DNA of 64,000 bases, taken from positions 145,769-209,768 of the forward strand of contig CAVYRK010000007.1 of NCBI GenBank assembly GCA_963770955.1, in the 5' to 3' direction. Shown piece after piece: positions 764 to 63,250 of the stretch. Under the pieces are notes generated by a model. That model was given only the letters and a program-made list of their open reading frames with translations, made no database searches and had not been told where the DNA came from. The stretch is from an uncultured Actinomycetota bacterium. GTDB taxonomy: Bacteria; Actinomycetota; UBA4738. The position numbers were made by a program, and so were the translations under genes. Numbering within the stretch: the stretch's first letter is position 1; every line of letters begins with the position of its first letter.

Positions 764-857
764 TGCCTCCCTTCCTCTCTGGGAAGCAGCATCCGGCGTG
801 GGAAGCAAGCGCCCTACGGTCGGACGGCCCGTTCTGCGGGGGCCGTTCGGTCCGGGA

Positions 858-1517
858 TCAGGCGGATCCGGGCGTCTGGGTGTGGCGCGCGAGGTAGGCG
901 GCCGCCTCCGCGCGGCGTCCCACCTCCAGCTTGGAGAGGATGCTCGAGACGTAGTTCTTGACGGTCTTCTCGGCGAGGTGCAGCTCCTCGCCGATCTGCT
1001 TGTTGGTCTGGCCGTCGGCGACCAGGGCCAGGATGCGCTCTTCCTGCGGAGACAGCCGGGCGAGCTTGTCGTCCTTCATCAGGTGCTTGCCCCTCCGCAG
1101 GCGGTCGAGCACCGCCTTGGTGACCTGAGGATCCAGCAGGCTCTTGCCCTGGCCCACCTCCCTGATCGCCTTCACGATCTCCGTGCCCTGGATCTGCTTG
1201 AGCACGTAGCCGGAGGCGCCGGCCATGATCGAGGCGAACAGAGCCTCGTCGTCGGCGAACGACGTCAGCATCAGGACCTGGGTCTTGGGACGCTTGGCGC
1301 GGATCTCCCGCGTCGCCTCGATCCCGCTGCCGTCCGCCAGGCGGACGTCCATGACGACCACGTCGGGGCGCGTTCGCTCGGCCTCCTCGACCGCCGCGCG
1401 CACCGAGCCCGCTTCCGCGCAGATCACGATGTCGTCCGCCGCCTCGAGCAGGGCCCGGACCCCGTCCCGGACGACCTCGTGGTCGTCCACCAGCATGACG
1501 CGCAGCGGCGTGGTCAT
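858..1517 (-). CDS. dosR: LuxR/NarL-family two-component response regulator, DevR/DosR-like
   Basis: 219 aa with an N-terminal receiver (MLVDDHEVVRDGVRALLE...DVVVMDVRLADGSG) and a C-terminal LuxR HTH (LSPQEERILALVADGQTNKQIGEELHLAEKTVKNYVSSILSKL). Lies immediately downstream of a GAF-GAF kinase. Confidence 0.85.
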   Translation of the reverse strand: MTTPLRVMLVDDHEVVRDGVRALLEAADDIVICAEAGSVRAAVEEAERTRPDVVVMDVRLADGSGIEATREIRAKRPKTQVLMLTSFADDEALFASIMAGASGYVLKQIQGTEIVKAIREVGQGKSLLDPQVTKAVLDRLRRGKHLMKDDKLARLSPQEERILALVADGQTNKQIGEELHLAEKTVKNYVSSILSKLEVGRRAEAAAYLARHTQTPGSA

Positions 1518-1563: not shown

Positions 1564-3183
1564 TCACGACCGAAAGGCGATGCGAAGGGTGGTTCCTTCC
1601 CCGGGGATCGAGGTCAGGTCCAGGGACGCCCCCATCCCCTCCGCCCGCTGGAGCATGTTGCGCAGGCCCTGCCCCGCCGGCGGCGGAGACGAGACGTCGA
1701 AGCCGCGTCCGTCGTCGTCGACCAGCAGGACGGGACCATCGTGCTCCATCGCGAGCGACACGCGCACCGTCGCCGCGCCCGCGTGACGGCCCACGTTCGA
1801 AAGTGCCTCGCGGGCGAGCTGGACGACGTCCGTGGCCTTCCCGGCGAGGGCGGCAGCAGCGCGAGGATCCACCTCGGCGACGGTGACGACCCCGGTCCGC
1901 TCGGCGAACTCGGCACCGAGCTGCCGGAGGGCGTCGTCCAGCCGCCCGCCGGCGAGGATGTCGGGGCGCAGTCCGAAGATGTAGCTGCGGAGGTCCTTGA
2001 TCACCCGGTCGAGCTCCTCGACGCCGCCCTCGATCCGCCGGGCGATGTCCTCGTCCCCGGCCAGCATCGCCGTCCCCTGGAGTCCCATGCCGACGGCGAA
2101 CAGGGACTGGATCACGCCGTCGTGCAGCTCCTTGGCGATCCGCTCCCGGTCTTCCATGAGCGTCAGGCGCTGCAGCTGGCGCTGCGCGTCTCCGAACTCG
2201 ACGGCCACGGACGCCTGTGCAGCGAACGCTTCCACCAGATCGACCTGCGCTTCTGTGAAGGGCTCCGCCCCAATGGGATTGGCGACAGACAGCGTGCCGA
2301 AGGCCTGGTTCCGGACGATCAGCGGAATGAACATCGTGGGACCCATGCGCGTCAACTCGATGAGCGCCTCGTACGCGCGCTCGTCCTCCGACGCGTTCTC
2401 GACGACGATCGGCTTCCCCAGGCTGATCACACTTCCCGAGATCGAGCCTTCGAGGGGAACGACGGTTCCCTCCAGTCCGTCGGTGTCCCTTCCGTCCGCC
2501 GCCGCGACGACGAGCGAACCATCCTGCTCCCCGTCGGGAAGCACGACCCAGGCCATCGTGGCGCCGGCGAGCTCGCGGGAGCGCGCCACCACGAGGCCGA
2601 GCGCCTCCTTCACCTCCCCGCCGGCGAGGATGGCGGTCGTCACCTCGCCCAGGGCGGCGAGCCAGCGGCCACGGCTCTCGGATTGCTCGTACAGCCGGGC
2701 ATTCGCCACCGCGATCCCCGCCTGCGCGGCCAGGATCACCAGAGACGTCTGATCCTCCTCCGTGAACGGCGACCCGCCCTGCTTCTCCGTGAGGTAGATG
2801 TTGCCGAAGACCTCGCCGCGGGCCGTCACCGGGGCGCCGAGGAACGTCCGCATCGGTGGATGGTTCGGCGGGAAGCCGACGGACCGTGGGTCGTCCGCGA
2901 TCGAGGCCAGCCGAAACGGCCTCACGTCCTTGATGAGGGCGCCGAGGACGCCCCGTCCCGTGGGAGGGTGCCCGATGGCGCGGCGTTCCTCCGGAGTGAC
3001 CCCCACGGTCACGAACTCGATGATCCGATCCCCGGGGCCGAGCACTCCCAGCGCGCCGTACCGGGCGCCGGTGAGCTCTACCCCGAGCTCGACGATGGCC
3101 TGCAGCACCAAGGGAAGGGACAACTCCGACGAGAGCGCGAGCCCCGCCTCCAGCAGCACATCCCTTTGATCTCGCCCGGCCAT
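1564..3183 (-). CDS. dosS: Sensor histidine kinase with tandem GAF domains, DevS/DosS/DosT-like
   Basis: 539 aa with two GAF-like regions followed by a HisKA_3 region (ERIAKELHDGVIQSLF) and HATPase_c (GRGFDVSS...GLRNMLQRAEGMGASLDL). Adjacent to the LuxR-type regulator. Confidence 0.85.
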   Translation of the reverse strand: MAGRDQRDVLLEAGLALSSELSLPLVLQAIVELGVELTGARYGALGVLGPGDRIIEFVTVGVTPEERRAIGHPPTGRGVLGALIKDVRPFRLASIADDPRSVGFPPNHPPMRTFLGAPVTARGEVFGNIYLTEKQGGSPFTEEDQTSLVILAAQAGIAVANARLYEQSESRGRWLAALGEVTTAILAGGEVKEALGLVVARSRELAGATMAWVVLPDGEQDGSLVVAAADGRDTDGLEGTVVPLEGSISGSVISLGKPIVVENASEDERAYEALIELTRMGPTMFIPLIVRNQAFGTLSVANPIGAEPFTEAQVDLVEAFAAQASVAVEFGDAQRQLQRLTLMEDRERIAKELHDGVIQSLFAVGMGLQGTAMLAGDEDIARRIEGGVEELDRVIKDLRSYIFGLRPDILAGGRLDDALRQLGAEFAERTGVVTVAEVDPRAAAALAGKATDVVQLAREALSNVGRHAGAATVRVSLAMEHDGPVLLVDDDGRGFDVSSPPPAGQGLRNMLQRAEGMGASLDLTSIPGEGTTLRIAFRS

Positions 3184-3222: not shown

Positions 3223-3651
3223 TCAGGTCGCCGGATGTGCCTTCGACACGGCGCGATCCAGCGCCCGCAGCACCGCGCGGCTCGATGGTGGGCGGCGAAC
3301 GATCATCGCGCCCTCGCCGCGCAGGAGCGAGGCTTCCTCGCCCGGCTCGACGATGGCGACGAGCGCGAGACCCAGGTCCCGGTACAGCAGCGCCAACTGC
3401 CATCCGGTCGCTCCGCCGTAGAGCTCGTCTCCGAGCAGGACGGTGTCCAGCACGACGGCGTCGGCGCCCGAGGCCAATGGACACGTCCCGGTCCGCACGC
3501 CGACGCAGGCGTCGTCCGGGCTCGGCCCCGGGCAGGCGAGCACCTCGTGACCGGCCGTCTCGAGGGATCGTCCGATCTCGTCCCGGACGCGCTCGTCGGC
3601 GGCGACCAGCAGGACGCGAACTGAAGCCTTTCCCCTCACGTGCTGTCTCAT
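3223..3651 (-). CDS. Stand-alone receiver-like (REC) domain protein, possibly atypical, 40 nt upstream of dosS
   Basis: MRQHVRGKASVRVLLVAADERVRDEIGRSLETAGHEVL...AVVLDTVL resembles a CheY-like receiver fold. Same strand and tight spacing to dosS. Confidence 0.4.
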   Translation of the reverse strand: MRQHVRGKASVRVLLVAADERVRDEIGRSLETAGHEVLACPGPSPDDACVGVRTGTCPLASGADAVVLDTVLLGDELYGGATGWQLALLYRDLGLALVAIVEPGEEASLLRGEGAMIVRRPPSSRAVLRALDRAVSKAHPAT

Positions 3652-3696
3652 GTCACCCCAGCGTCGGTCGCGAGGCGTTGCCGGCCAAGGGTCGAG

Positions 3697-3717
3697 GGTC
3701 CCGCCGAAGGAGGGACC
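3697..3717. promoter_or_regulatory. Perfect inverted repeat GGTCCC-N9-GGGACC, 45-65 nt upstream of the REC-dosS-dosR operon start; candidate operator
   Basis: Read directly: GGTCCCgccgaaggaGGGACC. Similar GTCCC-N9-GGGACC and GGACCC-N9-GGGTCC elements occur at 34875-34943. Confidence 0.3.
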
Positions 3718-3735
3718 AAGCACCGTTCGCAAACG

Positions 3736-3757
3736 CGGAGCGGGGGGCGAGCGCCCC
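3736..3757 (-). terminator. Perfect GC hairpin (GCGGGGGGCG-ag-CGCCCCCCGC) just 3' of the COG2403 gene; intrinsic-terminator-like
   Basis: 10-bp perfect inverted repeat with a 2-nt loop read directly from the sequence. On the minus strand it is followed by TCCGCGTTTG, a weak U-tract. Confidence 0.4.
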
Positions 3758-3784
3758 CCGCTCGAGCGTCCGGTCCGGCGTCGG

Positions 3785-5107
3785 TCACGCGACGGCGACC
3801 GAGAGCACCGGCGCCACGATGTCCTTCAGCGTGGGAACCCCCGGCAGCTCCCGCAGCGAGTACGTGACCCGGACCGCGGGACGCGGGATGCGGATCAGGT
3901 GCCGGAGGTCGATCGGGGTCGCCACGACCACCACCTCGCAGTCGGTCGCCGCGATGGCGGCTTCGAGCTCTGCGAGCTGCCCGGGCGAGTAGCCCTCGGC
4001 GGGAAGGACGGGGCCGACGTCGTACCTGTCGAACACGGCCTTCAGCGAGCCGGTGACGAACGGGCGCGGGTCGACGATCTCCTTCGCGCCGGCCCGCTGG
4101 GCCGCCACCACCCCGGCGCCGTACTTCATCCCTCCGTGGGTGAGGGTCGGACCGTCCTCGATGACCAGGACGCGCCGCCCCGCGATCGGCACGTCTCCCT
4201 CGATCCTCAGCGTGCTCTCCGCTCGGATCACCTCGGCGGAGGGATTGAGGTGGCGGATCGTCCGCTCCAGGGTCTCGACGGCCTCGGGCGTGGCGGCGTC
4301 GACCTTGTTGATCACCACGACGTCGGCCATCCGGAGGGCCGCCTCGCCCGGGTGGAACAACGTCTCGTCGCCCGTGCGAAGGGGATCCGCGACCACGATC
4401 AGGAGGTTCGGGCGGTAGAAGGGCAGGTCGTTGTTCCCGCCGTCCCACAGGAGCACGTCGCACTCCGTCTGGGCCCGTTCCAGGATCGCGCCGTAGTCCA
4501 CCCCGGCGTACACGACGGTCCCGCTCCGGATGTGGTGCTCGTACTCCTCCCGTTCCTCCACCGTGACCCGCGCGATGTCGAGGTCCTCGAGCGAGGCGAA
4601 TCGCTGGATGCGCTCGGCCACTAGGTCCCCGTAGGGCATCGGATGTCGCACGACGACCGGGCGGAGTCCCGCGGATCGCACGATCTCGGCGATGGCCCGC
4701 GTCGTCTGGCTCTTGCCGGCGCCCGTGCGGACCGCGCAGACGGCGATCACCGGCACGTTCGCCGGCAGCATCGTCGCATCCGGTCCGAGCAACGTGAAGC
4801 TCGCGCCGGCGGCGAGCGCCTTGCTCGCCCGGTGCATCACGTACTCGTGCGAGACGTCGGAGTAGCTGAACACCACCTCGTCGACCTTGAGCTCCCCGAC
4901 GAGCTCCTCCATCCGCTCCTCCGGATAGATGGGGATCCCGAGCGGATAGCCCTCGCCGGCCAGCTCGGCCGGGTACGTCCGGTCGTCGATGAACGGTATC
5001 TGCGCGGCGGTGAAGGCCACGACCTCCACGTCTCGGTCGTCGCGGAACACGACGTTGAAGTTGTGGAAGTCGCGTCCCGCGGCTCCCATGATGAGCACTC
5101 GCTTCAT
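3785..5107 (-). CDS. COG2403-family P-loop protein (cyclic 2,3-diphosphoglycerate synthetase-like)
   Basis: 440 aa. A Walker A-like motif GAGKSQTT follows an N-terminal Rossmann-like MKRVLIMGAAGRDFHNF; size and architecture fit the cDPG-synthetase/COG2403 family. Identity rests on memory of the family and is not verified. Confidence 0.5.
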   Translation of the reverse strand: MKRVLIMGAAGRDFHNFNVVFRDDRDVEVVAFTAAQIPFIDDRTYPAELAGEGYPLGIPIYPEERMEELVGELKVDEVVFSYSDVSHEYVMHRASKALAAGASFTLLGPDATMLPANVPVIAVCAVRTGAGKSQTTRAIAEIVRSAGLRPVVVRHPMPYGDLVAERIQRFASLEDLDIARVTVEEREEYEHHIRSGTVVYAGVDYGAILERAQTECDVLLWDGGNNDLPFYRPNLLIVVADPLRTGDETLFHPGEAALRMADVVVINKVDAATPEAVETLERTIRHLNPSAEVIRAESTLRIEGDVPIAGRRVLVIEDGPTLTHGGMKYGAGVVAAQRAGAKEIVDPRPFVTGSLKAVFDRYDVGPVLPAEGYSPGQLAELEAAIAATDCEVVVVATPIDLRHLIRIPRPAVRVTYSLRELPGVPTLKDIVAPVLSVAVA

Positions 5108-5140: not shown

Positions 5141-6674
5141 TCAGAGCGCGCCACGCCGTTCCCGATCGACAGGTCGGCGCGGCGCCTCCTCCAGCGTGAC
5201 GACGCCCATGCGCTCGAGCTCCACGGCGTGCCGGCGCTCGATCTCGGCGTGCTGGCGCCAGCGCATCAGCACGTAGACGGGGATGCCTGCCATCAGCAGC
5301 AGGAAGCCCCATGCGATCGTCTTCTCGCCCGAGCCCACCATCGCCCAGAACGCGTACCCGAAGCCCAGCAGCGCGATGATCGCGTCACGCACCAGCGACC
5401 GGCCGGCGAACCGGTCCGGCTCGCGGATCATCAGGACCAGGTGCGAGGCGGCGGCAAACGCGTACGGAACCAGCGTCGTCAGTGTGGCCAGGAGGATGAC
5501 GTTCCAGAACTGGTCCACCAGGCTCTTGCTGGAGTAGACCAGCATCAGCCCGCTGACCAGCACCGAGGAGACCACCAATCCGAACACGGGCGTGCGGCTC
5601 TTCCCGTTCACCACTCCGAACCGCTTGGGGAACAACCCATCCTGCGCGGCGGCCAGCGGAATGCGGCCCTGGATCAAGATCCAGCCGTTCAGGGCTCCGA
5701 ACGTGGAGATCAGCGCCACGAGCGCCACGAGCTTCTCCCATGTCAACCCGAGGAAGCTGCCCGTCCCGAACATCTCACGGGCGGCGTCGGCGAACGGGGC
5801 CGTCGACCCGGCCAGCTGCGCCATGGGGAGCACCCCCATGACGGCGATCGTCGCCAGCACGTAGACAACGGTCGTCGCGAGCGTGCCGAAGATCGTCGCG
5901 CGGGGGATGGTCTTCTTCGGCTCGCGGACCTCCTCGGCCGGCACCGTCGCCGATTCGAGGCCGATGAAGGCCCAGAGCGTCAGCGCGGCAGCGGCCGTGA
6001 TGCCGCCGATCATTCCGTCCCCCGTCCCCAATCCGTGGGGGGCGAAGGGCGTGAAGTGCGCTCCGTGGAGGAAGAAGAGCCCGGCGATGCCGATGCCCAG
6101 CAACGGAACGAACTTTAGGACGGTCGTGACGACCTGCACGACGTCCGGTCTGGCGGACGCCGACCGAGTTGACGAGCGTCAGGAGCCAGATCAGGCCGAT
6201 GCCGACCAGCGACGCCAGCAGATTGTTGTCGAGCACCGCGGGCCAGAACACCCCGAGGTAGGCAACGAACGCGACCGCGATGGCCGCGTTGCCGACCCAG
6301 GCGGCGATCCAGTACCCCCACGCGGTCCAGAAGCCGGCGAAATCACCGAATGCCCGGTGGGCGTAGGCGTACGGCCCGCCGGTCCGCGGATACGTGCGGC
6401 CCAACGTGGCGAACACCAGCGCGAGGAGCATCGCCCCGATGCCCGTGAACGCCCAGGCCAGGATCGAGCTCGAACCCGAGATCAGCACGACCGCGGCGAG
6501 CGACGCGGGCAGCAGGAAGACCCCGGAGCCGATCATGTTCCCGACGACGAGCGCCGTGGACATCCACGTTCCGAGGTCCCGCCTCAGCTCGGGCGACGTG
6601 TGCTCGGTCGGGATCGGGGGATTCTTCGTGCGTTCCATGACGATCCCTCCCTTCGCGGGGCGTGTCCACCCCAC
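5141..6674 (-). CDS. APC-superfamily amino-acid permease/antiporter; apparent frameshift near 6120-6170 splits it into two ORFs
   Basis: ORF 5775..6674 carries APC N-terminal TM helices (GSGVFLLPASLA...). ORF 5141..6139 carries the remaining TM helices and C-terminus. The two frames overlap over ~6120-6170 (exact point not resolved by eye). Confidence 0.75.
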
Positions 6675-6751
6675 GCATTCATGCTGGATCGCCGGTGTCC
6701 GGCCCGGTCCGCCGAAGGTCCCCCGACGGGGGGGACCCGTGTGAGGGCGTG

Positions 6752-9473
6752 TCAGACGCGCCGCGCGCTGATGGGCGGCGGCTTCGGGATGGACTCGAGC
6801 CGGATGCGGGCGTCGACCACCACCGCCCCGTGCTCGAGCACCATCACGGGGTTCAGATCCATCTCGGCGATCTCGGGATGCGCTTCGACCAGGGCCCCGA
6901 CACGCAGGACGAGCTCCTCGAGCGCCGCGACGTCCGCCTTCGGGGCCCCCCGGTACCCGTCGAGCAGCGGGAAGGTGCCGAGGGAGCGCACCATGTCGTG
7001 GACGTTGCGGTCGGTGATCGGGGTGATGCGAACGGCGACGTCCTTCAGCAGCTCCGCCGCCGTCCCGCCGGCGCCGCAGGCAACGACCGGACCGAACACG
7101 GGGTCGTGCACCACCCCGACGAGCATCTCGATCCCGCCCGTGATCATGCGCTGCACGAGGAACCCGGTCGGGTGAAGCCCCTCGTCGACGAGCCGGGCGG
7201 ACATCTCCCGCGCGGCGGCCGTCACCCGCCGCCGTCCCCGGAGGCCGAGGCGGACCAAGCCCGCTTCCGTCTTGTGCGTCATCCCGGGCACGACTGTCTT
7301 GAGCGCGACGGGGCCACGCATGTCCTCGGCCACCCGGCCCGCCTTCGCGGCCGACGACACCGTCGCCTCCTCGACCCGCGTCACGCCGTAGCAGTCGAGC
7401 AGCACGGCGATGTCCTCCGGGGACAGCCAGCCGCCCCCGCGGTCGAGCGCGTCCGCGACCAGGCCTGCCGCCTGGTCGGCGCGAAGGTCGTCGAACACGC
7501 GGACGGTCCCCTCGGGCTGCTCCCGCCAGGTGGCGTAGTCCACCGCCCGGGCGAGTCCGTGCGCGGCGTCCTCCGGGAAGGAGAACGTGGGCAGGTGCAC
7601 CGAGCCGGGCGGATTCAGCGCGGCCGGCGGCCCGGCCGACATCATGAAGACGGTCAGGAGCGGCAGCCGCCCGCCGAGCGACGCGGCTGCCGCGCGAAGC
7701 TCCGTCGCCACGTCCACCGGATCAGTCACGAGCGGAGGGATGAAGATCGCGACGATCGCGTCGGCCACGCCGGCCTCCGCCAGGACCTCGGTGGTCCGGC
7801 GGTAGTGCTCGGCGGTGGCGGAGGCGATCATGTCGACGGGATTCGACAGGCCGGCCTCCGCGGGAAGGAACTCCGCGAGGCGTCCGCGGACCTCTTCCGG
7901 CAGCGTCGGGACTTCCAACCCCAGGCCCTCGCACGCGTCCGCGCAGAGGATGCCGGGACCTCCCGCGTTGGTCAGGATGGCCACCCGGCGGCCGCGCGGG
8001 CAGCGGCTGGTTCGCGAGCAGCGACGCGACGTCGAACAGCTCCTCCAGCGAATCGGTGCGGATGACGCCGGCCTGATGGAAGAGCGCATCCACCGTGAGG
8101 TCGGAGGACGCGAGCATCGCGCCGGTGTGCGAGGACGTCGCGCGCGCGCCCGCCGTCGAACGGCCGCTCTTGACCGCAACGATCGGCTTCGTGCGCCCGA
8201 CCCGGCGGGAGATGCGCGCGAACCGGCGCGGGTTGCCGAAGGACTCCAGGTAGAGCAGGACCAGGGACGTCCCCGGGTCGGCCTCCCAGTACGAGAGCAG
8301 GTCGTTGCTGGAGATGTCGGCCTTGTTGCCCACCGAGATGAACGACGACAGCCCGAGGCCGCGGGCCTGGGCGAGATCCATGACCGCGAGGCCGAGCGCG
8401 CCGCTCTGGGAGAGGAAGCCGATGGTGCCGGGCGGCGGAGAGAGCGGAGAGAACGTGGCGTTCAGGTTCACGTCCGGGTCGGTGTTGACGATCCCCATGC
8501 AGTTCGGCCCGATCAGCCGCATCCCCGACTCGTGGCAGATGCGGACCAGCTCCAGCTGGCGGGCCCTGCCCTCCTCCCCCGCTTCGCCGAAGCCCGCCGA
8601 GATGACCACCAGGCCCCGGACGCCGTTCTCCCCACACGCGCGCGCCACGTCGGCGACGGACGCCGCGGGAACCGCGACGACCGCCACGTCCACGGGCTCG
8701 GGAAGGTCCTCCACGCTCGCGTAGGCGCGCACCGACTGCACGACCTCCGCGCCGGGGTTCACCGGATAGACGGGACCGGTGAAGCCGCTCTCCAGCAGGT
8801 TGTGGAACAGCTCGCCGCCGATCGTGCCGCGTCTCCGTGAGGCGCCGATCACCGCGACCGAGCGCGGGTGCAGGAACAGGCGGAGCGCCGCCACGGCCGC
8901 GGTGTCCTCCCGCGCCTCGAATCGGGTGACCGCCTCGGGCGTCATCGACGTCGGGAACTCCACGAGCACCGCGCCCGGCACGCTTCGCAGCCGGACGGGG
9001 AATCCCGCCTCCCGGAACACCTCGATCATCAGATGGTTGGAGGGCATCACCTGGGCCTCGAACGTGTGAATGCCGCTGTCGGCCGCGTGCTCGGCGAGAT
9101 GCCCCACCATGAGGGTGCCCATGCCCAGCCCCTGCATCGCGTCCGCGACGGTGAACGCGACCTCGGCTCGCTCCGGCGCGGTGCGTGCGTACATGGCGTG
9201 GCCGACCACGCGGGCCTCCGGACCGTGGGTGGCGACGATCGCGTAGCGGTCGCGGTAGTCGACGTCCACGAATCGCTGCGACTCCGCCTCCAGGTTCACG
9301 GACGCGGAGAAGAAGCGCAGGTACCGCGACTCGATGGACAGGTCCTCGAGGAAGCCGGCGATCGACGCACGGTCGTCGGGTCGCACCGGACGCACGCGCA
9401 CGGTCGAGCCGTCGCGAAGCGCGAGGTCGACCTCGCGCCGCGACGGGTAGTCGGTGGGCAGGGTCTCCGTCAT
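6752..9473 (-). CDS. GNAT acetyltransferase fused to an NDP(ADP)-forming acyl-CoA synthetase (CoA-binding + ATP-grasp); PatA-like protein acetyltransferase architecture; apparent frameshift near 7980-8180
   Basis: The N-terminus has a GNAT fold (MQGLGMGTLMVGHLAEHAADSGIHTFEAQV). It is followed by a CoA-binding/succinyl-CoA-synthetase-like domain (PRSVAVIGASRRRGTIGG...GPNCMGIVN...SQSGALG), then an ATP-grasp part in the second ORF (6752..8179). The domains are contiguous only across a frame change. Confidence 0.7.
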
Positions 9474-13082: not shown

Positions 13083-14195
13083 ATGAACATCGGACTCCCT
13101 GGAATGCACAAGGAGGCGGGCGAGCGCCGCGACTTCCTGCCCGACTTCGTCCGGCGGCTGTCGGAGGCGGGCGCCGGCGCGATCGTCCTCGAGAAGGGGT
13201 ACGGCTCGGGGATGGGCGTCGCCCCCGAGGCCTACCTCGCGGCCGCGCCGCGGGCGCGCTTCGGGTGCCTCGACGAATGCCTCGAGCAGGAGCTGGTCGC
13301 CGTCGTGCGTTGCCCCGGCGCGGGCGCGCTCAACCGCCTGCCCGCGGGGACGACCCTGCTGTCGATGCTGCACTACGGGACGTGGCCCGCCAGGACACGG
13401 TGGCTTGCCGAGCAGGGCATCCGCGCGATCAGCATGGACGGCATCGTCGACGACGACGGACGCCGGCGGGTGGAGGCCTTCGCGTCCGTCGGGTGGAACG
13501 GCGTCCGCGCCGCCTTCGCCGAGATCGCGAGGCTCCACCCGATGTTCTCCCACCCGGGCCGGGAGCCCCTGCGGGTGACGTGCCTCGGCGCCGGAGCGGT
13601 CGGGGGACACGCCATCCGCGCAGCCACGCGGTACGGAGACCCGAAGCTGCGCGAGGAGCTCGTCTCGCGCCGCGTGCCCGGCGTGGAGGTGACGGTCGCA
13701 GACTTCGACCTCACGTGGCACGAGGACTACATGCGGACGCGGCTGGAGCGTACCGACCTGCTGATCGACGCCACGCAGCGACTGGATCCCTCGCGGCCCG
13801 TGGTGCCGAATGCCTGGATCGCGAGTCTTCCCGACGGCGCCGTCATCCTCGACCTGTCGGCCGACACGTACGACCCGAGCGCGCACCCGCCCAAGACCAA
13901 GGGCATCGAAGGAATCCCGGAGGGCGACCTCGACCAGTGGGTGTTCGCGCCGACCGACCCGGCCTACGAGGACGTCCCGCCATCCGTCCCGACGGCTCAC
14001 CGCAGGGTGGCGCTGTCCTGCTACGCATGGCCGGGGCTCACGCCCCGCGAGTGCATGGCGTTGTACGGCTCACAGCTGGAGCCGTTCCTTCCCCTGATCG
14101 TCGGCGGCACGCCGACGGAGCATGACCGCGAGTCGCACGAGGGGCGCGCCCTTGCCCGAGCGGAGGTGACGACATGGCTGGCACAGGCGGCCTGA
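13083..14195 (+). CDS. Alanine dehydrogenase/PNT-family NAD(P)-binding oxidoreductase (AlaDH / saccharopine-DH / CEOS-like), copy 1
   Basis: The N-terminus MNIGLPGMHKEAGERRDFLPDFV...VLEKGYGSGMG matches the AlaDH/PNT N-terminal domain pattern. A central Rossmann motif LGAGAVGGHAIRAA is present. 370 aa. Confidence 0.65.
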   Translation: MNIGLPGMHKEAGERRDFLPDFVRRLSEAGAGAIVLEKGYGSGMGVAPEAYLAAAPRARFGCLDECLEQELVAVVRCPGAGALNRLPAGTTLLSMLHYGTWPARTRWLAEQGIRAISMDGIVDDDGRRRVEAFASVGWNGVRAAFAEIARLHPMFSHPGREPLRVTCLGAGAVGGHAIRAATRYGDPKLREELVSRRVPGVEVTVADFDLTWHEDYMRTRLERTDLLIDATQRLDPSRPVVPNAWIASLPDGAVILDLSADTYDPSAHPPKTKGIEGIPEGDLDQWVFAPTDPAYEDVPPSVPTAHRRVALSCYAWPGLTPRECMALYGSQLEPFLPLIVGGTPTEHDRESHEGRALARAEVTTWLAQAA

Positions 14196-31126: not shown

Positions 31127-31266
31127 CGAACTCACCTCCGATACCATGCTCCGGCAGGCGGCTGCTCCCATCCCGGGTCCTCCGACCCGCATGCCGGAGG
31201 TCCATTGGCGGTTGGTTCCGGAGCTCGCCCGGTCCAGGCTCGAGGCGGCGCACACTGGAGGCGACC

Positions 31267-34807: not shown

Positions 34808-34874
34808 GTCCCGTTCCTTTCCGCCTTGCACGCACCCACAGTCGTTCACCGCGCACCCGGAGCGTGGGGCCGCC

Positions 34875-34943
34875 GGACCCGCATTGGAGGGGTCCAACGG
34901 CAGGACACCCGGGGGGGCCGGTCGTCCCGGACGGCGCGGGACC
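34875..34943. promoter_or_regulatory. Pair of inverted repeats in the divergent DsrE / flavodoxin-CBS promoter region: GGACCC-N9-GGGTCC (34875-34895) and GTCCC-N9-GGGACC (34924-34943)
   Basis: Read directly from the sequence. Arm sequence and 9-bp spacer are the same as the element at 3697-3717. Confidence 0.3.
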
Positions 34944-35012
34944 GACGACCCGAGGAGGGACGCGGGCCGCGGTGGATGCTCGGCGTGACCGACGACGAGG
35001 GAGGGATCGACG

Positions 35013-35974: not shown

Positions 35975-36224
35975 TCGCTCAGCCTCCCGCAGGCTGGAGG
36001 GCCGCATCCAGCAAGCGCGTCACGTTCGCCTTCCACTGATCCGGCTCGGCGATGAGGAGGAAGGCCGCGCCCTGCGCGCCCGCGAGGGCGCGCAGGGCGC
36101 GGCGAGAGGAAGGGTCTTCATCCGACGTTCCGTCGAGCACCATCCTCGTGCTCACCTCCGGATTCACCCTGCACGAATCGGAGCGGAGTCCCTAGGGGAG
36201 AAGGTCCCGCGGTTCGGGAGTCGT

Positions 36225-36728
36225 TCAGTGCGCGGCGGCGATGCCGCCGATCGGCGATCCGTTCCCGGGGGCGGCCAGGCGTTGCTGGATGCGGCCGGCG
36301 ACACGATCCATGAAGTCCTTGATCGTCGCCTCGGCGACACGGTGCAGAAGCGCCCGATCGGCCACCCGTCCGACCATCCCGAACGGCGGCGTGTACCGGG
36401 CCGTCATCGCGAGCTGGGTGTACGCGGCTCCCATGGGCGCCACCTCGATCTCGGCATCCATCGCGGGCAGGAGGCCCTCGGCGTGCGCGGGGTGCCACGA
36501 GATGGGCTGGAGCGTCTTGAACTCCAGCCGCGCGGGCTCGCCCACCGTCACCACGACGCTGCGGCCCACCCGGACGGCTTTCCCGAAGCCCACCTCGGCC
36601 ATGCGCCGCTCGCCGCCCTCCTCGGCCGACGTGGCCAGGGCGGGCAGCCAGTCCTTCCCATCAGAGGTGAGGGCGGCGTCGACCGCCGCGAAGGGGGCCG
36701 CGATCTCGACGAAGGTGCGGACGAACAT
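36225..36728 (-). CDS. SRPBCC (Bet v1/START-like, polyketide cyclase/CoxG-type) family protein
   Basis: MFVRTFVEIAAPFAAVDAALTS... is a typical N-terminus for this fold. ~167 aa. Confidence 0.5.
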   Translation of the reverse strand: MFVRTFVEIAAPFAAVDAALTSDGKDWLPALATSAEEGGERRMAEVGFGKAVRVGRSVVVTVGEPARLEFKTLQPISWHPAHAEGLLPAMDAEIEVAPMGAAYTQLAMTARYTPPFGMVGRVADRALLHRVAEATIKDFMDRVAGRIQQRLAAPGNGSPIGGIAAAH

Positions 36729-36818
36729 GCAGGGAGCCTGGCAGGACAACCGAGCGATGCGAGGGGCCGACCGTCCCGACTTCACCGGGACCTCCTGCCC
36801 GAGCGGCGGAGAGCGGAC

Positions 36819-41102: not shown

Positions 41103-42262
41103 TACAGGCCCCCGACGAAGACACCCGGGTTGCACGCCACGGACGGGTCGAAGCGCTCCTTCACGCGGCGCATCAGCTCCACGGGTCCCGCCTCCGGACC
41201 CCACACGTCGAGCGCCGCCCGGACGTCGTCCGGCGCGTCCAGCACGACGCACGGCCGGGGCGAGAGCGCCGACCGCAGCTCTTCGATGGCCGCGGCGACA
41301 TCGGCAGGCGGACCTGCGGGCAGGGTCACCCAGCTCAGCCCGAGCCCGGCGCGCCCGACGACCCAGGCGCGGGCGCGCGCGGCTGCCCGCAGGACGGCGG
41401 GCAGGTCGGATCGCACGCCGGAGACGCGGACCACCGTGGCCTCGGCGCTCCGCTGCGCGGCGCGCTGCCCGACCCACTGGGCGTCGTCATCCTCGGCGAC
41501 GGCGACGTCCAGCCCGAGCCCGCGCATGCTCGAGGCGGCGCTCGCGACGCGCGGCGCCGTCGCCGCGCCGGCGACACGGGCAAGCACGGCCCCGCCGCCG
41601 TCCCCCCAGCGCACGTCCAGCGACTCGAGCTCGAGCGGCGACGCGGCCAGCGCGGAGACGGCCCGTCCCAGCGCGCCGGGATCCGTGCCGACGCCCGCGA
41701 CGGTGGCGCGGCCCGCCGGGAGCGGGTGCAGCCGCACCACCACCTCGACGATCATCCCCAGCGTCCCGAACGACCCGGTGAACAGCTTGGCCAGGTCGTA
41801 GCCGGCGACGTTCTTGATGACGCGGCCGCCCGACCGCGCGAGCGTGCCGTCCGCCAGCGCGACCCGTACGCCGAGCAGCAGGTCGCGGGCGGCGCCGTAC
41901 CGGTGCCGCAGCGGTCCGGAGTCGGCGCAGGCAACGACGCCGCCGACGGTCGCGGAGCCGCCCGGGTTCGGCGGATCGAGCGCCAGCATCTGGCCCGCCT
42001 CCGCGAACGCCTCCTGCGCCCGAGCCAGCGGGATGCCGGCCTGCAGGACCGCGGTCATGTCACCGGCGTTGTGCTCCAGCACCCGGTCGAGCGACTGCGT
42101 CGAGATGCCCACCACGTCCCGGTTCGGGGGCACGCCCCACGTTCGCTTCGTCTCGCCGCCCACGAACCGCACGGCCTCGCCGCCGGCGACCAGCTTCCCG
42201 AGCGTCTCCGCCGCCTCCTCCGGAGAATCGGGCGCGTACCGGACCGCGACGCCGACGGCCAC
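41102..42262 (-). CDS. glcE: Glycolate oxidase FAD-binding subunit GlcE
   Basis: 386 aa with an FAD-binding PCMH-type domain (VRFVGGETK...). Lies between glcD and glcF. Confidence 0.8.
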   Translation of the reverse strand: MAVGVAVRYAPDSPEEAAETLGKLVAGGEAVRFVGGETKRTWGVPPNRDVVGISTQSLDRVLEHNAGDMTAVLQAGIPLARAQEAFAEAGQMLALDPPNPGGSATVGGVVACADSGPLRHRYGAARDLLLGVRVALADGTLARSGGRVIKNVAGYDLAKLFTGSFGTLGMIVEVVVRLHPLPAGRATVAGVGTDPGALGRAVSALAASPLELESLDVRWGDGGGAVLARVAGAATAPRVASAASSMRGLGLDVAVAEDDDAQWVGQRAAQRSAEATVVRVSGVRSDLPAVLRAAARARAWVVGRAGLGLSWVTLPAGPPADVAAAIEELRSALSPRPCVVLDAPDDVRAALDVWGPEAGPVELMRRVKERFDPSVACNPGVFVGGL

Positions 42263-62515: not shown

Positions 62516-62941
62516 CTAGTCGGTCGGCTCGGGCTTCGTCGCGTTGCGCAGCCGGGTCGCCAGGGCGACGAGCATCTTCTGCGAGATCGACGGGTACTGC
62601 TCGAGCACCCCGCGGAAGACCCAGGCGGTCAGGCCGAGCATCGAGACGTCGGTGTTGGCCACCACGTCCGCCGACCGCGGGCCGCCGTCCAGCAGCGATA
62701 TCTCGCCGAAGAAGTCGCCCGGCCCAAGCGTGCCACGCTTACGGCCGTTCACCAGGACGTCGGCCGTCCCGTCCACCAGGAGGAAGAACCCGACCCCGGG
62801 CTCGCCAGTGCGGGCGAGCACGGATCCCTCGCGACGCTGGACCTCCTTCGCCGCCCGCGCGATCGCGGCGATCTCCCGCTGGGAGCATCCCGAGAACAGC
62901 GGGACGCGGGAGAGCAGCTCCGTGATTTCGGCCTTCGTCAC
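62516..62941 (-). CDS. Cyclic-nucleotide-binding domain protein
   Basis: The cNMP-binding signature GDFFGEISLL and the preceding beta-roll are present. Starts at GTG/TTG (…VTKAEITELLSRVPLFSG). Confidence 0.6.
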   Translation of the reverse strand: MTKAEITELLSRVPLFSGCSQREIAAIARAAKEVQRREGSVLARTGEPGVGFFLLVDGTADVLVNGRKRGTLGPGDFFGEISLLDGGPRSADVVANTDVSMLGLTAWVFRGVLEQYPSISQKMLVALATRLRNATKPEPTD

Positions 62942-63250
62942 CAGACCCCTCCTTGGACTCCCCTCGGCCTCCGGTCGCCGGATTCTATGCGATCCGGCCT
63001 CGGATGCAGAATGCGCCCCCGCGCGGTGCCCGTCGCCGCCAGACGAAGGACCCTGGGGACCAGGGGCGATGGGCACCAGGGTAACCTCGACACCGCTCGC
63101 ACACTGGCTTCATCGATCAAAGGACCTGTGCTTGCCGAAACCGCGGAACTGGACGTTCGGGGCGGAGGGCGTCACGATATTCTTCGGCATGCGCGAACGG
63201 GCGAACGACGGAATCACCCCGTCCTCGAGCCCCGGGGACGTCCCACGGCC

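What the first reader, a model, noticed from the sequence alone, without database searches (positions are those of the whole stretch)
3697..3717. Perfect 6-bp-arm palindrome GGTCCC-N9-GGGACC in the promoter of the REC-dosS-dosR operon
It sits 45-65 nt upstream of the operon's first start codon and just downstream of a strong terminator hairpin. The same arms with the same 9-bp spacer recur at 34875-34943. The half-sites resemble the GGGAC/GTCCC core of the mycobacterial DosR box but are arranged differently (N9 spacer), so this may be the local regulator's autoregulatory site or a distinct regulon motif
Basis: seen in the sequence. Interest (0 to 1): 0.55.

Follow-up and report, generated by a model that had tools for sequence, protein, structure and literature searches.

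The report
Tandem DosR-type activator sites, autoregulated operon
The palindrome is real, but it is the junction of two side-by-side binding sites of the well-known DosR/DevR/OsdR hypoxia regulator, placed where an activator sits in front of the regulator's own operon, so it is an ordinary regulatory element with a slightly unusual spacing.

Summary
The palindrome GGTCCC-N9-GGGACC is at 3697-3717 and is not chance: there are 2 exact copies against 0.04 expected, and 4 copies of the 5-bp-arm form against 0.42 expected, all intergenic.

It is not a new N9-spaced operator. Its arms are the inner half-sites of two tandem DosR/OsdR boxes (GGGNC-N4-GNCCC) 23 bp apart. The promoter-proximal box is 3689-3702 and the degenerate distal box is 3712-3725.

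- In seven orthologous promoters the conserved unit is GNCCC-N9-GGGNC-N4-GNCCC. The one variable arm position changes without compensation, which argues against a hairpin.
- The box-N9-box model gives 5 window hits against 0.67 expected, and 23 hits in 15 related loci, where other spacers give 0-6.
- A -10-like hexamer (nAnnnT) lies exactly 23 nt after the proximal box at 5 of 5 window sites and 17 of 23 sites in relatives. This puts the boxes near -42.5 and -65.5, as at M. tuberculosis DevR promoters (-42.5 and -63.5).
- The operon's regulator is 47% identical to DevR with an identical recognition helix, and its kinase keeps the DevS/DosT haem residues.

Verdict: this is a probable autoregulatory, near-leaderless DosR-type activator promoter. 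It is a new member of a known kind, with 23-bp rather than 21-22-bp box spacing. Binding has not been tested.

The parts
3697..3717 (.). The reported palindrome GGTCCC-N9-GGGACC. It consists of the inner half-sites of two adjacent DosR-type boxes plus the 9-bp gap between them.
3689..3702 (-). Promoter-proximal (primary) DosR/OsdR-type box. It reads GGGACCCTCGACCC on the minus strand, and its centre lies about -42.5 from the inferred transcription start.
   Evidence: It matches GGGNC-N4-GNCCC exactly. Both half-sites are conserved in 7 of 7 orthologous promoters.
3712..3725 (-). Distal (secondary) box, CGGTGCTTGGTCCC on the minus strand. The inner half GTCCC is conserved and the outer half is degenerate. 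Its centre lies about -65.5.
   Evidence: L003, L004 and L007 carry a full box here (GGGTCGATCGGCCC).
3660..3665 (-). -10-like hexamer GACGCT (nAnnnT), exactly 23 nt after the proximal box and 8 nt before the ATG. This implies a 5' UTR of about 0-3 nt.
   Evidence: It is conserved as GACGCT, GACCCT or GACTGT in the orthologues.
3683..3688 (-). Possible -35 hexamer TTGGCC abutting the proximal box, 17 nt from the -10-like hexamer.
   Evidence: Read from the sequence; inference only. The consensus promoter scan found nothing here.
3223..3651 (-). First gene of the operon: a 142-aa divergent receiver-fold protein with three invariant cysteines.
1564..3183 (-). DosS/DosT-type sensor kinase (GAF-GAF-HisKA_3-HATPase). 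The haem-binding His and the Tyr of DevS/DosT are conserved.
858..1517 (-). DosR/DevR-type response regulator (REC + GerE/LuxR helix-turn-helix). Its recognition helix LAEKTVKNYVS is identical to that of DevR.
3738..3764 (-). GC-rich hairpin that ends the upstream gene (3785-5107). It is a probable terminator without a U-tail.
   Evidence: It is conserved in L001 and L006.
817..853 (-). Second tandem site (box-N9-box, 2 mismatches of 16) between the regulator's stop codon and the DoxX-like gene (ATG at 760). The -10-like GATGCT is at 788-793.
   Evidence: It is conserved in L001.
6709..6737 (-). The other exact GGTCCC-N9-GGGACC copy. On the minus strand it reads GTCCC-N9-GGGACCTTCGGCGG, with a degenerate outer half. 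A -10-like CAGCAT lies 22 nt further on (6681-6686). It sits upstream of the amino-acid permease gene (ATG at 6638).
   Evidence: It is weaker than the other sites and could also act as a hairpin after the upstream gene.
31175..31188 (-). Exact box GGGTCGGAGGACCC (minus strand) with GAGCAT 23 nt downstream, upstream of a CBS-BON gene. The distal box is poor.
34867..34951 (.). Array of four boxes starting at 34867, 34890, 34915 and 34938 (start-to-start spacing 23, 25, 23 bp) in a divergent promoter region. The -10-like hexamers are GACTGT (34838-34843, minus strand, DsrE/SQR-like genes) and GATGCT (34975-34980, plus strand, flavodoxin-like and CBS genes).
36764..36800 (-). Tandem site with 1 mismatch of 16. 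The core of the proximal box, GGGCCGACCGTCCC on the plus strand, is identical to the core of the SCO0200 OsdR site as printed in PMC5069765. CAGGCT lies 23 nt downstream, followed by 6 nt and the ATG at 36728. This is a leaderless SRPBCC gene.

Best explanation
The palindrome is the inner part of a pair of tandem binding sites for a phosphorylated DosR/DevR/OsdR-type response regulator, most probably the one encoded by this operon (858-1517). That would make it a positive autoregulatory site.

Proposed mechanism:
- One regulator dimer binds the well-conserved promoter-proximal box (3689-3702, GGGAC-N4-GACCC on the coding strand), centred about -42.5. The box abuts or overlaps the -35 region.
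- A second dimer binds cooperatively to the adjacent distal box (3712-3725, centred about -65.5). Only the half-site of this box that faces the first dimer is well conserved.
- Together they recruit RNA polymerase to a weak promoter (-10-like GACGCT at 3660-3665). This promoter gives a leaderless or nearly leaderless mRNA for the REC-like protein, the haem-GAF kinase and the regulator.

The same box-N9-box-N23-(-10) module drives at least five other promoters in the window: the DoxX-like gene, the CBS-BON gene, the DsrE/SQR-like genes, the flavodoxin-like and CBS genes, and the SRPBCC gene. A sixth, weaker case lies before the permease gene.

Shown by computation: the sequence architecture, its conservation, its fixed position relative to a -10-like element, and the identity of the regulator's recognition helix.
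Inferred: binding, cooperativity, activation, the transcription start and the inducing signal (hypoxia, NO or CO).
For: 1. Canonical box. 3689-3702 matches GGGNC-N4-GNCCC exactly. This is the core of the OsdR consensus AGGGCCGATCGGCCCT and of the DevR box (PMC5069765).

2. Phylogenetic footprint. In seven promoters upstream of homologues of the first gene, the invariant columns spell G.CCC-N9-GGG.C-N4-G.CCC while the flanks and spacers diverge. Three of the seven have two complete boxes.

3. Tandem model box-N9-box with at most 2 mismatches of 16:
- The window has 5 hits, all intergenic, against 0.67 expected; 0 of 300 simulations reach 5. N9 has the most hits of spacers 0-30: 5, against 3 at N10 and 0-2 elsewhere.
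- In 15 loci from the closest relatives N9 has 23 hits and other spacers 0-6.
- The dyad scans peak independently at GGGNC-N4-GNCCC (32) and GNCCC-N9-GGGNC (31), against a background that is mostly 3-16.

4. Promoter geometry. nAnnnT lies exactly 23 nt after the proximal box at 5 of 10 oriented window sites, that is, at one orientation of each of the 5 sites. The binomial P is 5e-7 for that offset and no other offset scores above 1. In relatives it is 17 of 46 oriented sites, P = 3e-16. This places the proximal box at about -42.5, the same as the tgs1 primary Dev box in M. tuberculosis, where tandem boxes are reported at all DevR promoters (PMC3177182).

5. The proteins. The regulator's best solved-structure match is DevR (3c3w, E = 6e-55), with 47% identity and an identical LAEKTVKNYVS helix. 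The kinase's GAF-A domain matches DosT and DevS (E = 1e-47) and keeps the motifs GFPPNHPPMRTFLG and FGNIYLTEK.

6. Downstream genes fit a hypoxia or dormancy regulon. They include CBS-domain proteins and the regulator's own operon.
Against: - No binding, transcription-start or expression data exist for this organism, which is known only as an uncultured Actinomycetota MAG lineage.
- A single box has low information content at 71% GC: 10 exact matches in the window against 7.8 expected.
- The outer half of the distal box at this promoter is poor (CGGTG).
- The 23-bp spacing is 2 bp longer than the 21-bp in-phase spacing that was shown to matter in M. tuberculosis. Cooperative binding with this geometry is therefore assumed, not shown.
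- The consensus sigma-70 scan finds no promoter here, so the -10 call rests on the weak nAnnnT rule.
- The closest relatives carry the regulator behind an SRPBCC gene rather than in a REC-HK-RR operon. The genome may therefore hold a paralogue that is the true binder.
Confidence: 0.8

Rival explanations
1. The sites are DosR-type, but they are bound by a paralogous DosR-like regulator encoded elsewhere in the genome. The site would then be cross-regulatory rather than autoregulatory.
For: In the closest relatives the 77-82% identical regulator sits directly behind a leaderless SRPBCC gene. In the window the SRPBCC gene (36225-36728) has no regulator behind it, so a second regulator may exist. 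A recognition helix identical to DevR would be shared by paralogues.
Against: Autoregulation is the rule for DevR and OsdR (PMC5069765, PMC3177182). The site is conserved together with this operon in L001-L007. No second NarL-type regulator turned up among the window proteins I scanned with Pfam, but that scan did not cover every ORF.
Confidence: 0.12
2. The inner palindrome GTCCC-N9-GGGAC is itself the recognition unit. It would be bound by a dimer with widely spaced DNA-reading heads, or by the two inner subunits of a tetramer, or by a different regulator.
For: The two inner half-sites are the best conserved part apart from the proximal outer half. When sites are anchored only on the proximal box, the inner distal half scores G 51, C 49, C 52, C 39 of 60. 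The outer distal half scores only 29-36 of 60. The site at 6717 has only the inner halves intact. The exact GGTCCC-N9-GGGACC also recurs in L009, L011, L016 and L019.
Against: The third half-site (GNCCC, 4 bp after GGGNC) is invariant in 7 of 7 orthologous promoters, in an alignment anchored on the gene rather than the motif. The N4 arrangement peaks as strongly as N9 (32 against 31). Several sites have four good half-sites: 34915-34951 has 0 mismatches of 16. A degenerate secondary site beside a primary site is exactly what is described for DevR (PMC3177182).
Confidence: 0.05
3. The palindrome acts as a nucleic-acid hairpin. It would be part of the terminator of the upstream gene, or an attenuator.
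For: As RNA it folds to -13.2 kcal/mol, z = -2.4. It lies about 20 nt after a strong hairpin. The copy at 6717 forms a 9-bp stem just after the stop of the upstream gene (-18.7 kcal/mol).
Against: In the seven-sequence alignment four of the six arm pairs never vary. The one variable internal pair (T-A) is broken without compensation in 4 of 7 sequences. Sliding the 3' partner by +1 or +2 gives covariation scores that are just as high. The other instances fold no better than shuffled sequence (z from -0.7 to -1.8). The conserved third half-site and the fixed distance to a -10-like hexamer have no meaning for a hairpin. By the promoter geometry the element is upstream of the transcription start.
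Confidence: 0.02
4. It is a chance palindrome in GC-rich DNA.
For: With one mismatch allowed, both GTCCC-N9-GGGAC and GGGAC-N4-GTCCC occur at background frequency.
Against: Exact copies are about 10- to 50-fold over expectation. The element is conserved across orthologues and positioned relative to -10-like hexamers.
Confidence: 0.01

Closest known systems
Mycobacterium tuberculosis DevR (DosR) regulon promoters with tandem Dev boxes (Chauhan et al. 2011, PMC3177182), including the autoregulated Rv3134c-devR-devS operon
   Same: - Inverted half-sites GGGAC/GTCCC with a 4-bp centre.
- At least two adjacent boxes per promoter: a conserved primary box plus degenerate secondary boxes.
- The proximal box is centred at about -42.5.
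- Arrays of up to four boxes occur in divergent promoter regions (the narK2-Rv1738 class), like 34867-34951 here.
- The regulator is a NarL-family protein with the same recognition helix, and the kinase is a haem-GAF kinase.
- The regulator's own operon is a target.
   Different: - Centre-to-centre spacing is 23 bp (-42.5 and -65.5) instead of 21 bp (-42.5 and -63.5).
- The box centres are GC-rich, like OsdR, not the A/T-rich TWWA.
- The first gene of the operon is a cysteine-bearing receiver-fold protein, not a universal stress protein.
- The gene order is kinase then regulator.
- Several target mRNAs appear to be leaderless.
- Nothing has been tested experimentally.
Streptomyces coelicolor OsdR (SCO0204) binding sites (Urem et al. 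2016, PMC5069765)
   Same: The GC-rich form of the box is shared (consensus AGGGCCGATCGGCCCT). The core of the window's box at 36764-36777, GGGCCGACCGTCCC, is identical to the core of the EMSA-verified SCO0200 site. The GGGACCTTCGGC at 6711-6722 (minus strand) resembles the SCO0216, SCO0167 and SCO5979 sites. Sites are clustered in a stress and anaerobiosis island around the regulator gene, and the regulator gene has its own site.
   Different: The OsdR paper describes single 16-nt sites and does not report a tandem rule. In my scan of Streptomyces and Kitasatospora loci the commonest tandem spacing is N8 (22 bp), with 9 hits against 4 at N9. The window lineage uses N9.
Class II activator promoters of NarL/FixJ-family response regulators in general
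   Same: An activator dimer is centred near -41.5 to -42.5, replacing or overlapping a poor -35 element, with upstream helper sites.
   Different: The resemblance is generic only. The half-site sequence and regulon content point specifically to the DosR branch.

Membership tests
DevR/DosR/OsdR operator (Dev box) | Inverted repeat GGGNC-N4-GNCCC (M. tuberculosis GGGACTWWAGTCCC; Streptomyces GGGCCGATCGGCCC) | tested here: met
   3689-3702 reads GGGTCGAGGGTCCC, an exact match to the degenerate core. Both halves are invariant in 7 of 7 orthologous promoters. The N4 dyad peak in relatives is 32, against a background that is mostly 3-14.
DevR/DosR/OsdR operator (Dev box) | At least two boxes in tandem, one conserved and one that may be degenerate | tested here: met
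   Box-N9-box gives 5 window hits against 0.67 expected and 23 hits in 15 related loci. The distal outer half is weakly conserved. The spacing is 23 bp, against the 21 bp reported for M. tuberculosis.
DevR/DosR/OsdR operator (Dev box) | Promoter-proximal box centred about -42.5, next to or overlapping the -35 region | tested here: inconclusive
   The fixed 23-nt distance to an nAnnnT hexamer (5 of 5 window sites, 17 of 23 sites in relatives) implies -42.5. No transcription start is mapped, and the consensus promoter scan is negative.
DevR/DosR/OsdR operator (Dev box) | Bound by the phosphorylated regulator; required for induction by hypoxia, NO or CO | not testable with these tools
   This needs EMSA or footprinting and expression data.
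DosR/DevR-type response regulator (window 858-1517) | REC + LuxR/GerE helix-turn-helix, with the DNA-contacting Lys179, Lys182 and Asn183 of DevR (residue roles from my recollection of the 1ZLK DevR-DNA structure paper) | tested here: met
   Pfam finds Response_reg + GerE. The best PDB match is DevR 3c3w (E = 6e-55, 47% identity). The stretch LAEKTVKNYVS is identical.
DosS/DosT-type haem sensor kinase (window 1564-3183) | GAF-GAF-HisKA_3-HATPase architecture, with the proximal haem His and distal Tyr in GAF-A | tested here: met
   Pfam architecture. GAF-A matches DosT 2vzw (E = 1e-47) and DevS. The motifs GFPPNHPPMRTFLG and FGNIYLTEK align with those of DevS and DosT. Haem binding itself is not testable here.
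Intrinsic terminator or regulatory hairpin | Stem maintained by compensatory changes; located at an RNA 3' end | tested here: not met
   The variable arm position is broken without compensation in 4 of 7 sequences, and covariation is no better than in the slid controls. The real terminator-like hairpin is the separate element at about 3738-3764.

The most novel reading that the evidence does not exclude
In this uncultured actinobacterial lineage the DosR-type regulator may have shifted to a 23-bp register in which three half-sites (GNCCC-N9-GGGNC-N4-GNCCC) are the selected unit. That would imply a dimer-dimer or tetramer geometry on DNA different from the in-phase 21-bp arrangement of M. tuberculosis DevR. 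The two subunits that face each other across the 9-bp gap would carry much of the specificity. The spacing seems to drift between lineages (N7 in M. tuberculosis, N8 in Streptomyces and Acidimicrobiia, N9 here). That drift would make a natural series for studying how cooperative activator arrays re-space during evolution.
Probability: 0.12. Interest if true: 0.5.

Novelty: new member of a known kind. Interest (0 to 1): 0.27.

Why it matters
The result gives a concrete, testable promoter grammar for the DosR-type regulon of an uncultured Actinomycetota lineage: distal box, 9 bp, proximal box, 23 nt, -10 hexamer. With it, direct targets can be called from sequence alone. In this window they include DoxX-like, CBS-BON, CBS, DsrE/SQR-like, flavodoxin-like and SRPBCC genes and the regulator's own operon.

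It also shows that the tandem-box rule established for M. tuberculosis extends across distant Actinomycetota, with a lineage-specific spacing.

It does not change how this system is understood. It is the expected autoregulatory site of a well-known regulator family.

Tried and rejected
- One search failed because of my own coordinate error. I gave 3223-3652 instead of 3223-3651, so the wrong frame was translated (peptides such as HETAREGK) and one genome-contig scan was wasted. For the same reason protein 3 was the wrong frame. I repeated that search with the correct sequence, and it still had no Pfam hit at E <= 0.1.
- The motif with one mismatch allowed is at background, both as GTCCC-N9-GGGAC (9 against 9.3) and as GGGAC-N4-GTCCC (10 against 9.4). 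A single exact GGGNC-N4-GNCCC is also near background in the window (10 against 7.8). Only the exact palindrome, the tandem model, conservation and position carry signal.
- I tested the hairpin or terminator reading and rejected it.
- The consensus sigma-70 and terminator scan of 3500-3900 found nothing, as expected for a high-GC actinobacterium.
- The source genome is not among the GTDB species representatives; the best regulator match is 82% identical. No genome-wide scan of the source organism was therefore possible.
- Three box-plus-hexamer hits are probably chance: 14033-14046, about 41351-41364 and 63054-63067. The first two lie inside long high-GC3 ORFs. The third overlaps the 5' end of the ORF 62516-63076 and has 1 mismatch. 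I did not examine them further and did not count them.
- I tried aligning the 6717 region with the L002 promoter to test for a duplicated promoter. Apart from the shared 3' end of the ATP-grasp gene, the similarity is limited to short stretches, so the result is inconclusive.

Full report
**Observation**

The sequence GGTCCCGCCGAAGGAGGGACC is at 3697-3717. The exact pattern GGTCCC-N9-GGGACC occurs twice in the 64-kb window, at 3697 and 6717. Dinucleotide-preserving shuffles give 0.04 on average, and 0 of 100 reach 2. With 5-bp arms there are four exact copies, at 3698, 6718, 34924 and 36773, against 0.42 expected; 0 of 100 shuffles reach 4. All four lie in intergenic gaps. With one mismatch allowed the pattern is at background (9 against 9.3).

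34875-34895 reads GGACCC-N9-GGGTCC, and 34923-34943 reads cGTCCC-N9-GGGACC. The exact copy at 6717-6737 was missed.

**Context**

The genes are on the minus strand:
- 3223-3651: a 142-aa protein. Its start codon has its A at 3651, so 45 nt separate it from the palindrome.
- 1564-3183: a GAF-GAF-HisKA_3-HATPase kinase.
- 858-1517: a REC-GerE response regulator.

Upstream, the gene 3785-5107 ends in an 11-bp GC hairpin at about 3738-3764 (-27.5 kcal/mol, z = -3.9).

I made one error. I first used 3652 as the start coordinate, which put (protein 3) and 15 in the wrong frame. The correct sequence was used from then on.

**What the palindrome is**

The left arm (plus strand) is the right half of GGGTCGAGGGTCCC (3689-3702). 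This is an exact match to GGGNC-N4-GNCCC, the core shared by two known consensus sites. One is the M. tuberculosis Dev box. The other is the S. coelicolor OsdR consensus AGGGCCGATCGGCCCT (PMC5069765). The right arm begins a second, poorer box, GGGACCAAGCACCG (3712-3725).

The other copies behave in the same way:
- 34915-34951 reads GGGCCGGTCGTCCC-N9-GGGACCGACGACCC, with 0 mismatches of 16.
- 36764-36800 has 1 mismatch. The core of its first box is identical to the core of the EMSA-verified SCO0200 site.
- 34867-34903 and 817-853 have 2 mismatches each.

The N9 palindrome is thus the junction of two tandem boxes whose centres are 23 bp apart.

**Conservation**

The first gene's protein has only eight relatives at 57-100% identity among 5.8 billion clusters. 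I retrieved contigs for seven of them, and six carry upstream sequence. In the alignment of seven promoters, anchored on the gene, the invariant columns spell G.CCC-N9-GGG.C-N4-G.CCC. The flanks and spacers diverge. L003, L004 and L007 have two complete boxes, GGGTCGATCGGCCC-N9-GGGACGGGCGACCC.

The only variable arm position is the fourth base of the half-site, the degenerate N of the motif. It changes without compensation in 4 of 7 sequences, and covariation is no better than in slid controls. This argues against a selected hairpin.

**Regulon-wide test**

The model box-N9-box with at most 2 mismatches of 16 gives 5 hits in the window, all intergenic. First-order Markov simulations give 0.67, and 0 of 300 reach 5. 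N9 has the most hits of spacers 0-30: 5, against 3 at N10 and 0-2 elsewhere.

A search of one genome per species for relatives of the regulator returned 80 loci. The source genome is not among them. The closest are uncultured Actinomycetota MAGs with 77-82% identity.
- In the 15 closest loci N9 gives 23 hits and other spacers give 0-6.
- In the 65 more distant loci (Streptomyces, Kitasatospora, Streptosporangiales, Acidimicrobiia and others) the peak is at N8 (29 hits), with N7 at 15 and N9 at 13.
- Simple dyad counts in the relatives peak independently at GGGNC-N4-GNCCC (32) and GNCCC-N9-GGGNC (31), against a background that is mostly 3-16.

**Position relative to the promoter**

A hexamer of the form nAnnnT, the minimal actinobacterial -10 signature, lies exactly 23 nt downstream of the proximal box. 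It is there at one orientation of each of the 5 window sites, and no other offset from 0 to 59 scores above 1. The background frequency is 0.0185, so the binomial P is 5e-7 for that offset. In the relatives it is present at 17 of 46 oriented sites, P = 3e-16.

With the hexamer at -12 to -7, the proximal box is centred at -42.5 and the distal one at -65.5.

At 3689-3702 the hexamer is GACGCT (3660-3665), 8 nt before the ATG. At the SRPBCC gene it is CAGGCT, 6 nt before the ATG. These mRNAs are therefore predicted to be leaderless or nearly so. The other targets have Shine-Dalgarno leaders.

The same geometry holds for the box at 31175-31188 before a CBS-BON gene. It also holds, with a 22-nt offset and a degenerate outer half, for the copy at 6717 before an amino-acid permease gene.

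**The proteins**

- The regulator's best solved-structure match is M. tuberculosis DevR (3c3w, E = 6e-55, 47% identity). The recognition-helix stretch LAEKTVKNYVS is identical.
- The kinase's first GAF domain matches DosT and DevS (E = 1e-47). It keeps the haem-ligand histidine context GFPPNHPPMRTFLG and the FGNIYLTEK tyrosine.

**Comparison with what is known**

Chauhan et al. 2011 (PMC3177182) report the following for M. tuberculosis DevR promoters:
- Every promoter has two to four tandem boxes.
- A conserved primary site recruits DevR cooperatively to degenerate secondary sites.
- The tgs1 boxes sit at -42.5 and -63.5.
- Changing the helical phase abolishes secondary binding.

The window shows the same grammar. 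It has a degenerate secondary site, a four-box array in a divergent region (34867-34951, box starts 23, 25 and 23 bp apart), and a site before the regulator's own operon.

The differences are modest:
- Spacing is 23 bp rather than 21 bp.
- The box centres are GC-rich, as for OsdR.
- The first gene of the operon is different.
- Some targets appear to be leaderless.

The OsdR paper does not describe a tandem rule. My scans suggest that Streptomyces mostly uses 22 bp.

**Conclusion**

It is wrong about a distinct arrangement. This is a new member of a known kind. No binding or expression evidence exists, and a paralogous regulator cannot be excluded as the actual binder.

Noticed in passing
window 3223-3651 (minus strand); homologues P0001-P0008; loci L001-L007: The first gene of the operon encodes a very rare 142-aa protein. 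It has only 8 clusters among 5.8 billion and no Pfam hit at E <= 0.1. The predicted fold is a receiver domain (AlphaFold2 pLDDT 78; Foldseek TM-score, normalised by target length, about 0.62-0.78 among the top receiver-domain matches). It carries an insertion of about 25 residues between strands 2 and 3 with three invariant cysteines (C40, C49, C57; CPGPxPDDxCVGxRxGxCPLA). The aspartate in VVLDT is invariant, and the usual Lys-Pro near strand 5 is Arg-Pro. It could be a redox- or metal-sensitive pseudo-receiver or a phosphate sink for the DosS/DosR-type pair.
   Followed up: partly
window 5141-6638 and 6752-9473 (minus strand): Two genes are each split into overlapping ORFs in different frames. 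The amino-acid permease is split into 5775-6638 (N-terminal part) and 5141-6139 (C-terminal part). The GNAT / ADP-forming acyl-CoA synthetase is split into 7722-9473 and 6752-8179. These are frameshifts, so either pseudogenes or assembly errors.
   Followed up: no
L008-L016, L032 at about 3390-3470; window 36728-36800: In the closest relatives the DosR-type regulator lies directly behind a leaderless SRPBCC (Polyketide_cyc2-like) gene that starts ATGTTCG. This gene has the tandem N9 site in front, often with the exact GGTCCC-N9-GGGACC. In the window the SRPBCC gene has the same promoter but no regulator behind it.
   Followed up: partly
loci L022-L087: The preferred spacing between tandem DosR-type boxes differs by lineage. 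It is N9 (23 bp) in the window's lineage and N8 (22 bp) in the Streptomyces/Kitasatospora, Streptosporangiales and Acidimicrobiia loci. M. tuberculosis is reported at 21 bp. The distance to the -10-like hexamer stays at 23-24 nt (PMC3177182).
   Followed up: partly
L012, L017-L020 (MAGs labelled Chloroflexota or Dormibacterota): Regulators 71-81% identical to the window's, with the same N9 tandem sites, sit in MAGs assigned to other phyla. This points to horizontal transfer of the module or to mis-binned contigs.
   Followed up: no
window 36195-36208 (minus strand) and the small ORF with ATG at about 36142: A further single box, GGGACCTTCTCCCC, has CAGGGT 23 nt downstream and a Shine-Dalgarno sequence. 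It precedes an ORF of about 54 codons with no family match, just after the SRPBCC gene.
   Followed up: no
window 6709-6760 compared with L002 896-983: In L002 the ATP-grasp (acyl-CoA synthetase) gene is followed directly by the REC-like operon and its promoter. In the window the same gene end is followed by the 6717 copy of the palindrome and then by a permease gene and a 440-aa gene before the operon. The 6717 site may be a remnant or a duplicate of the operon promoter. The alignment was inconclusive.
   Followed up: partly
window 9484-32200: The island also holds the following genes: two P-type cation ATPases, a NiFe-hydrogenase large-subunit fragment, a HypE-like gene, ApbE, two AlaDH/PNT-like genes, a phosphoribosyltransferase, a 4Fe-4S protein, and OsmC and DsrE-like genes. 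No tandem box site was found directly upstream of the ATPase genes.
   Followed up: no
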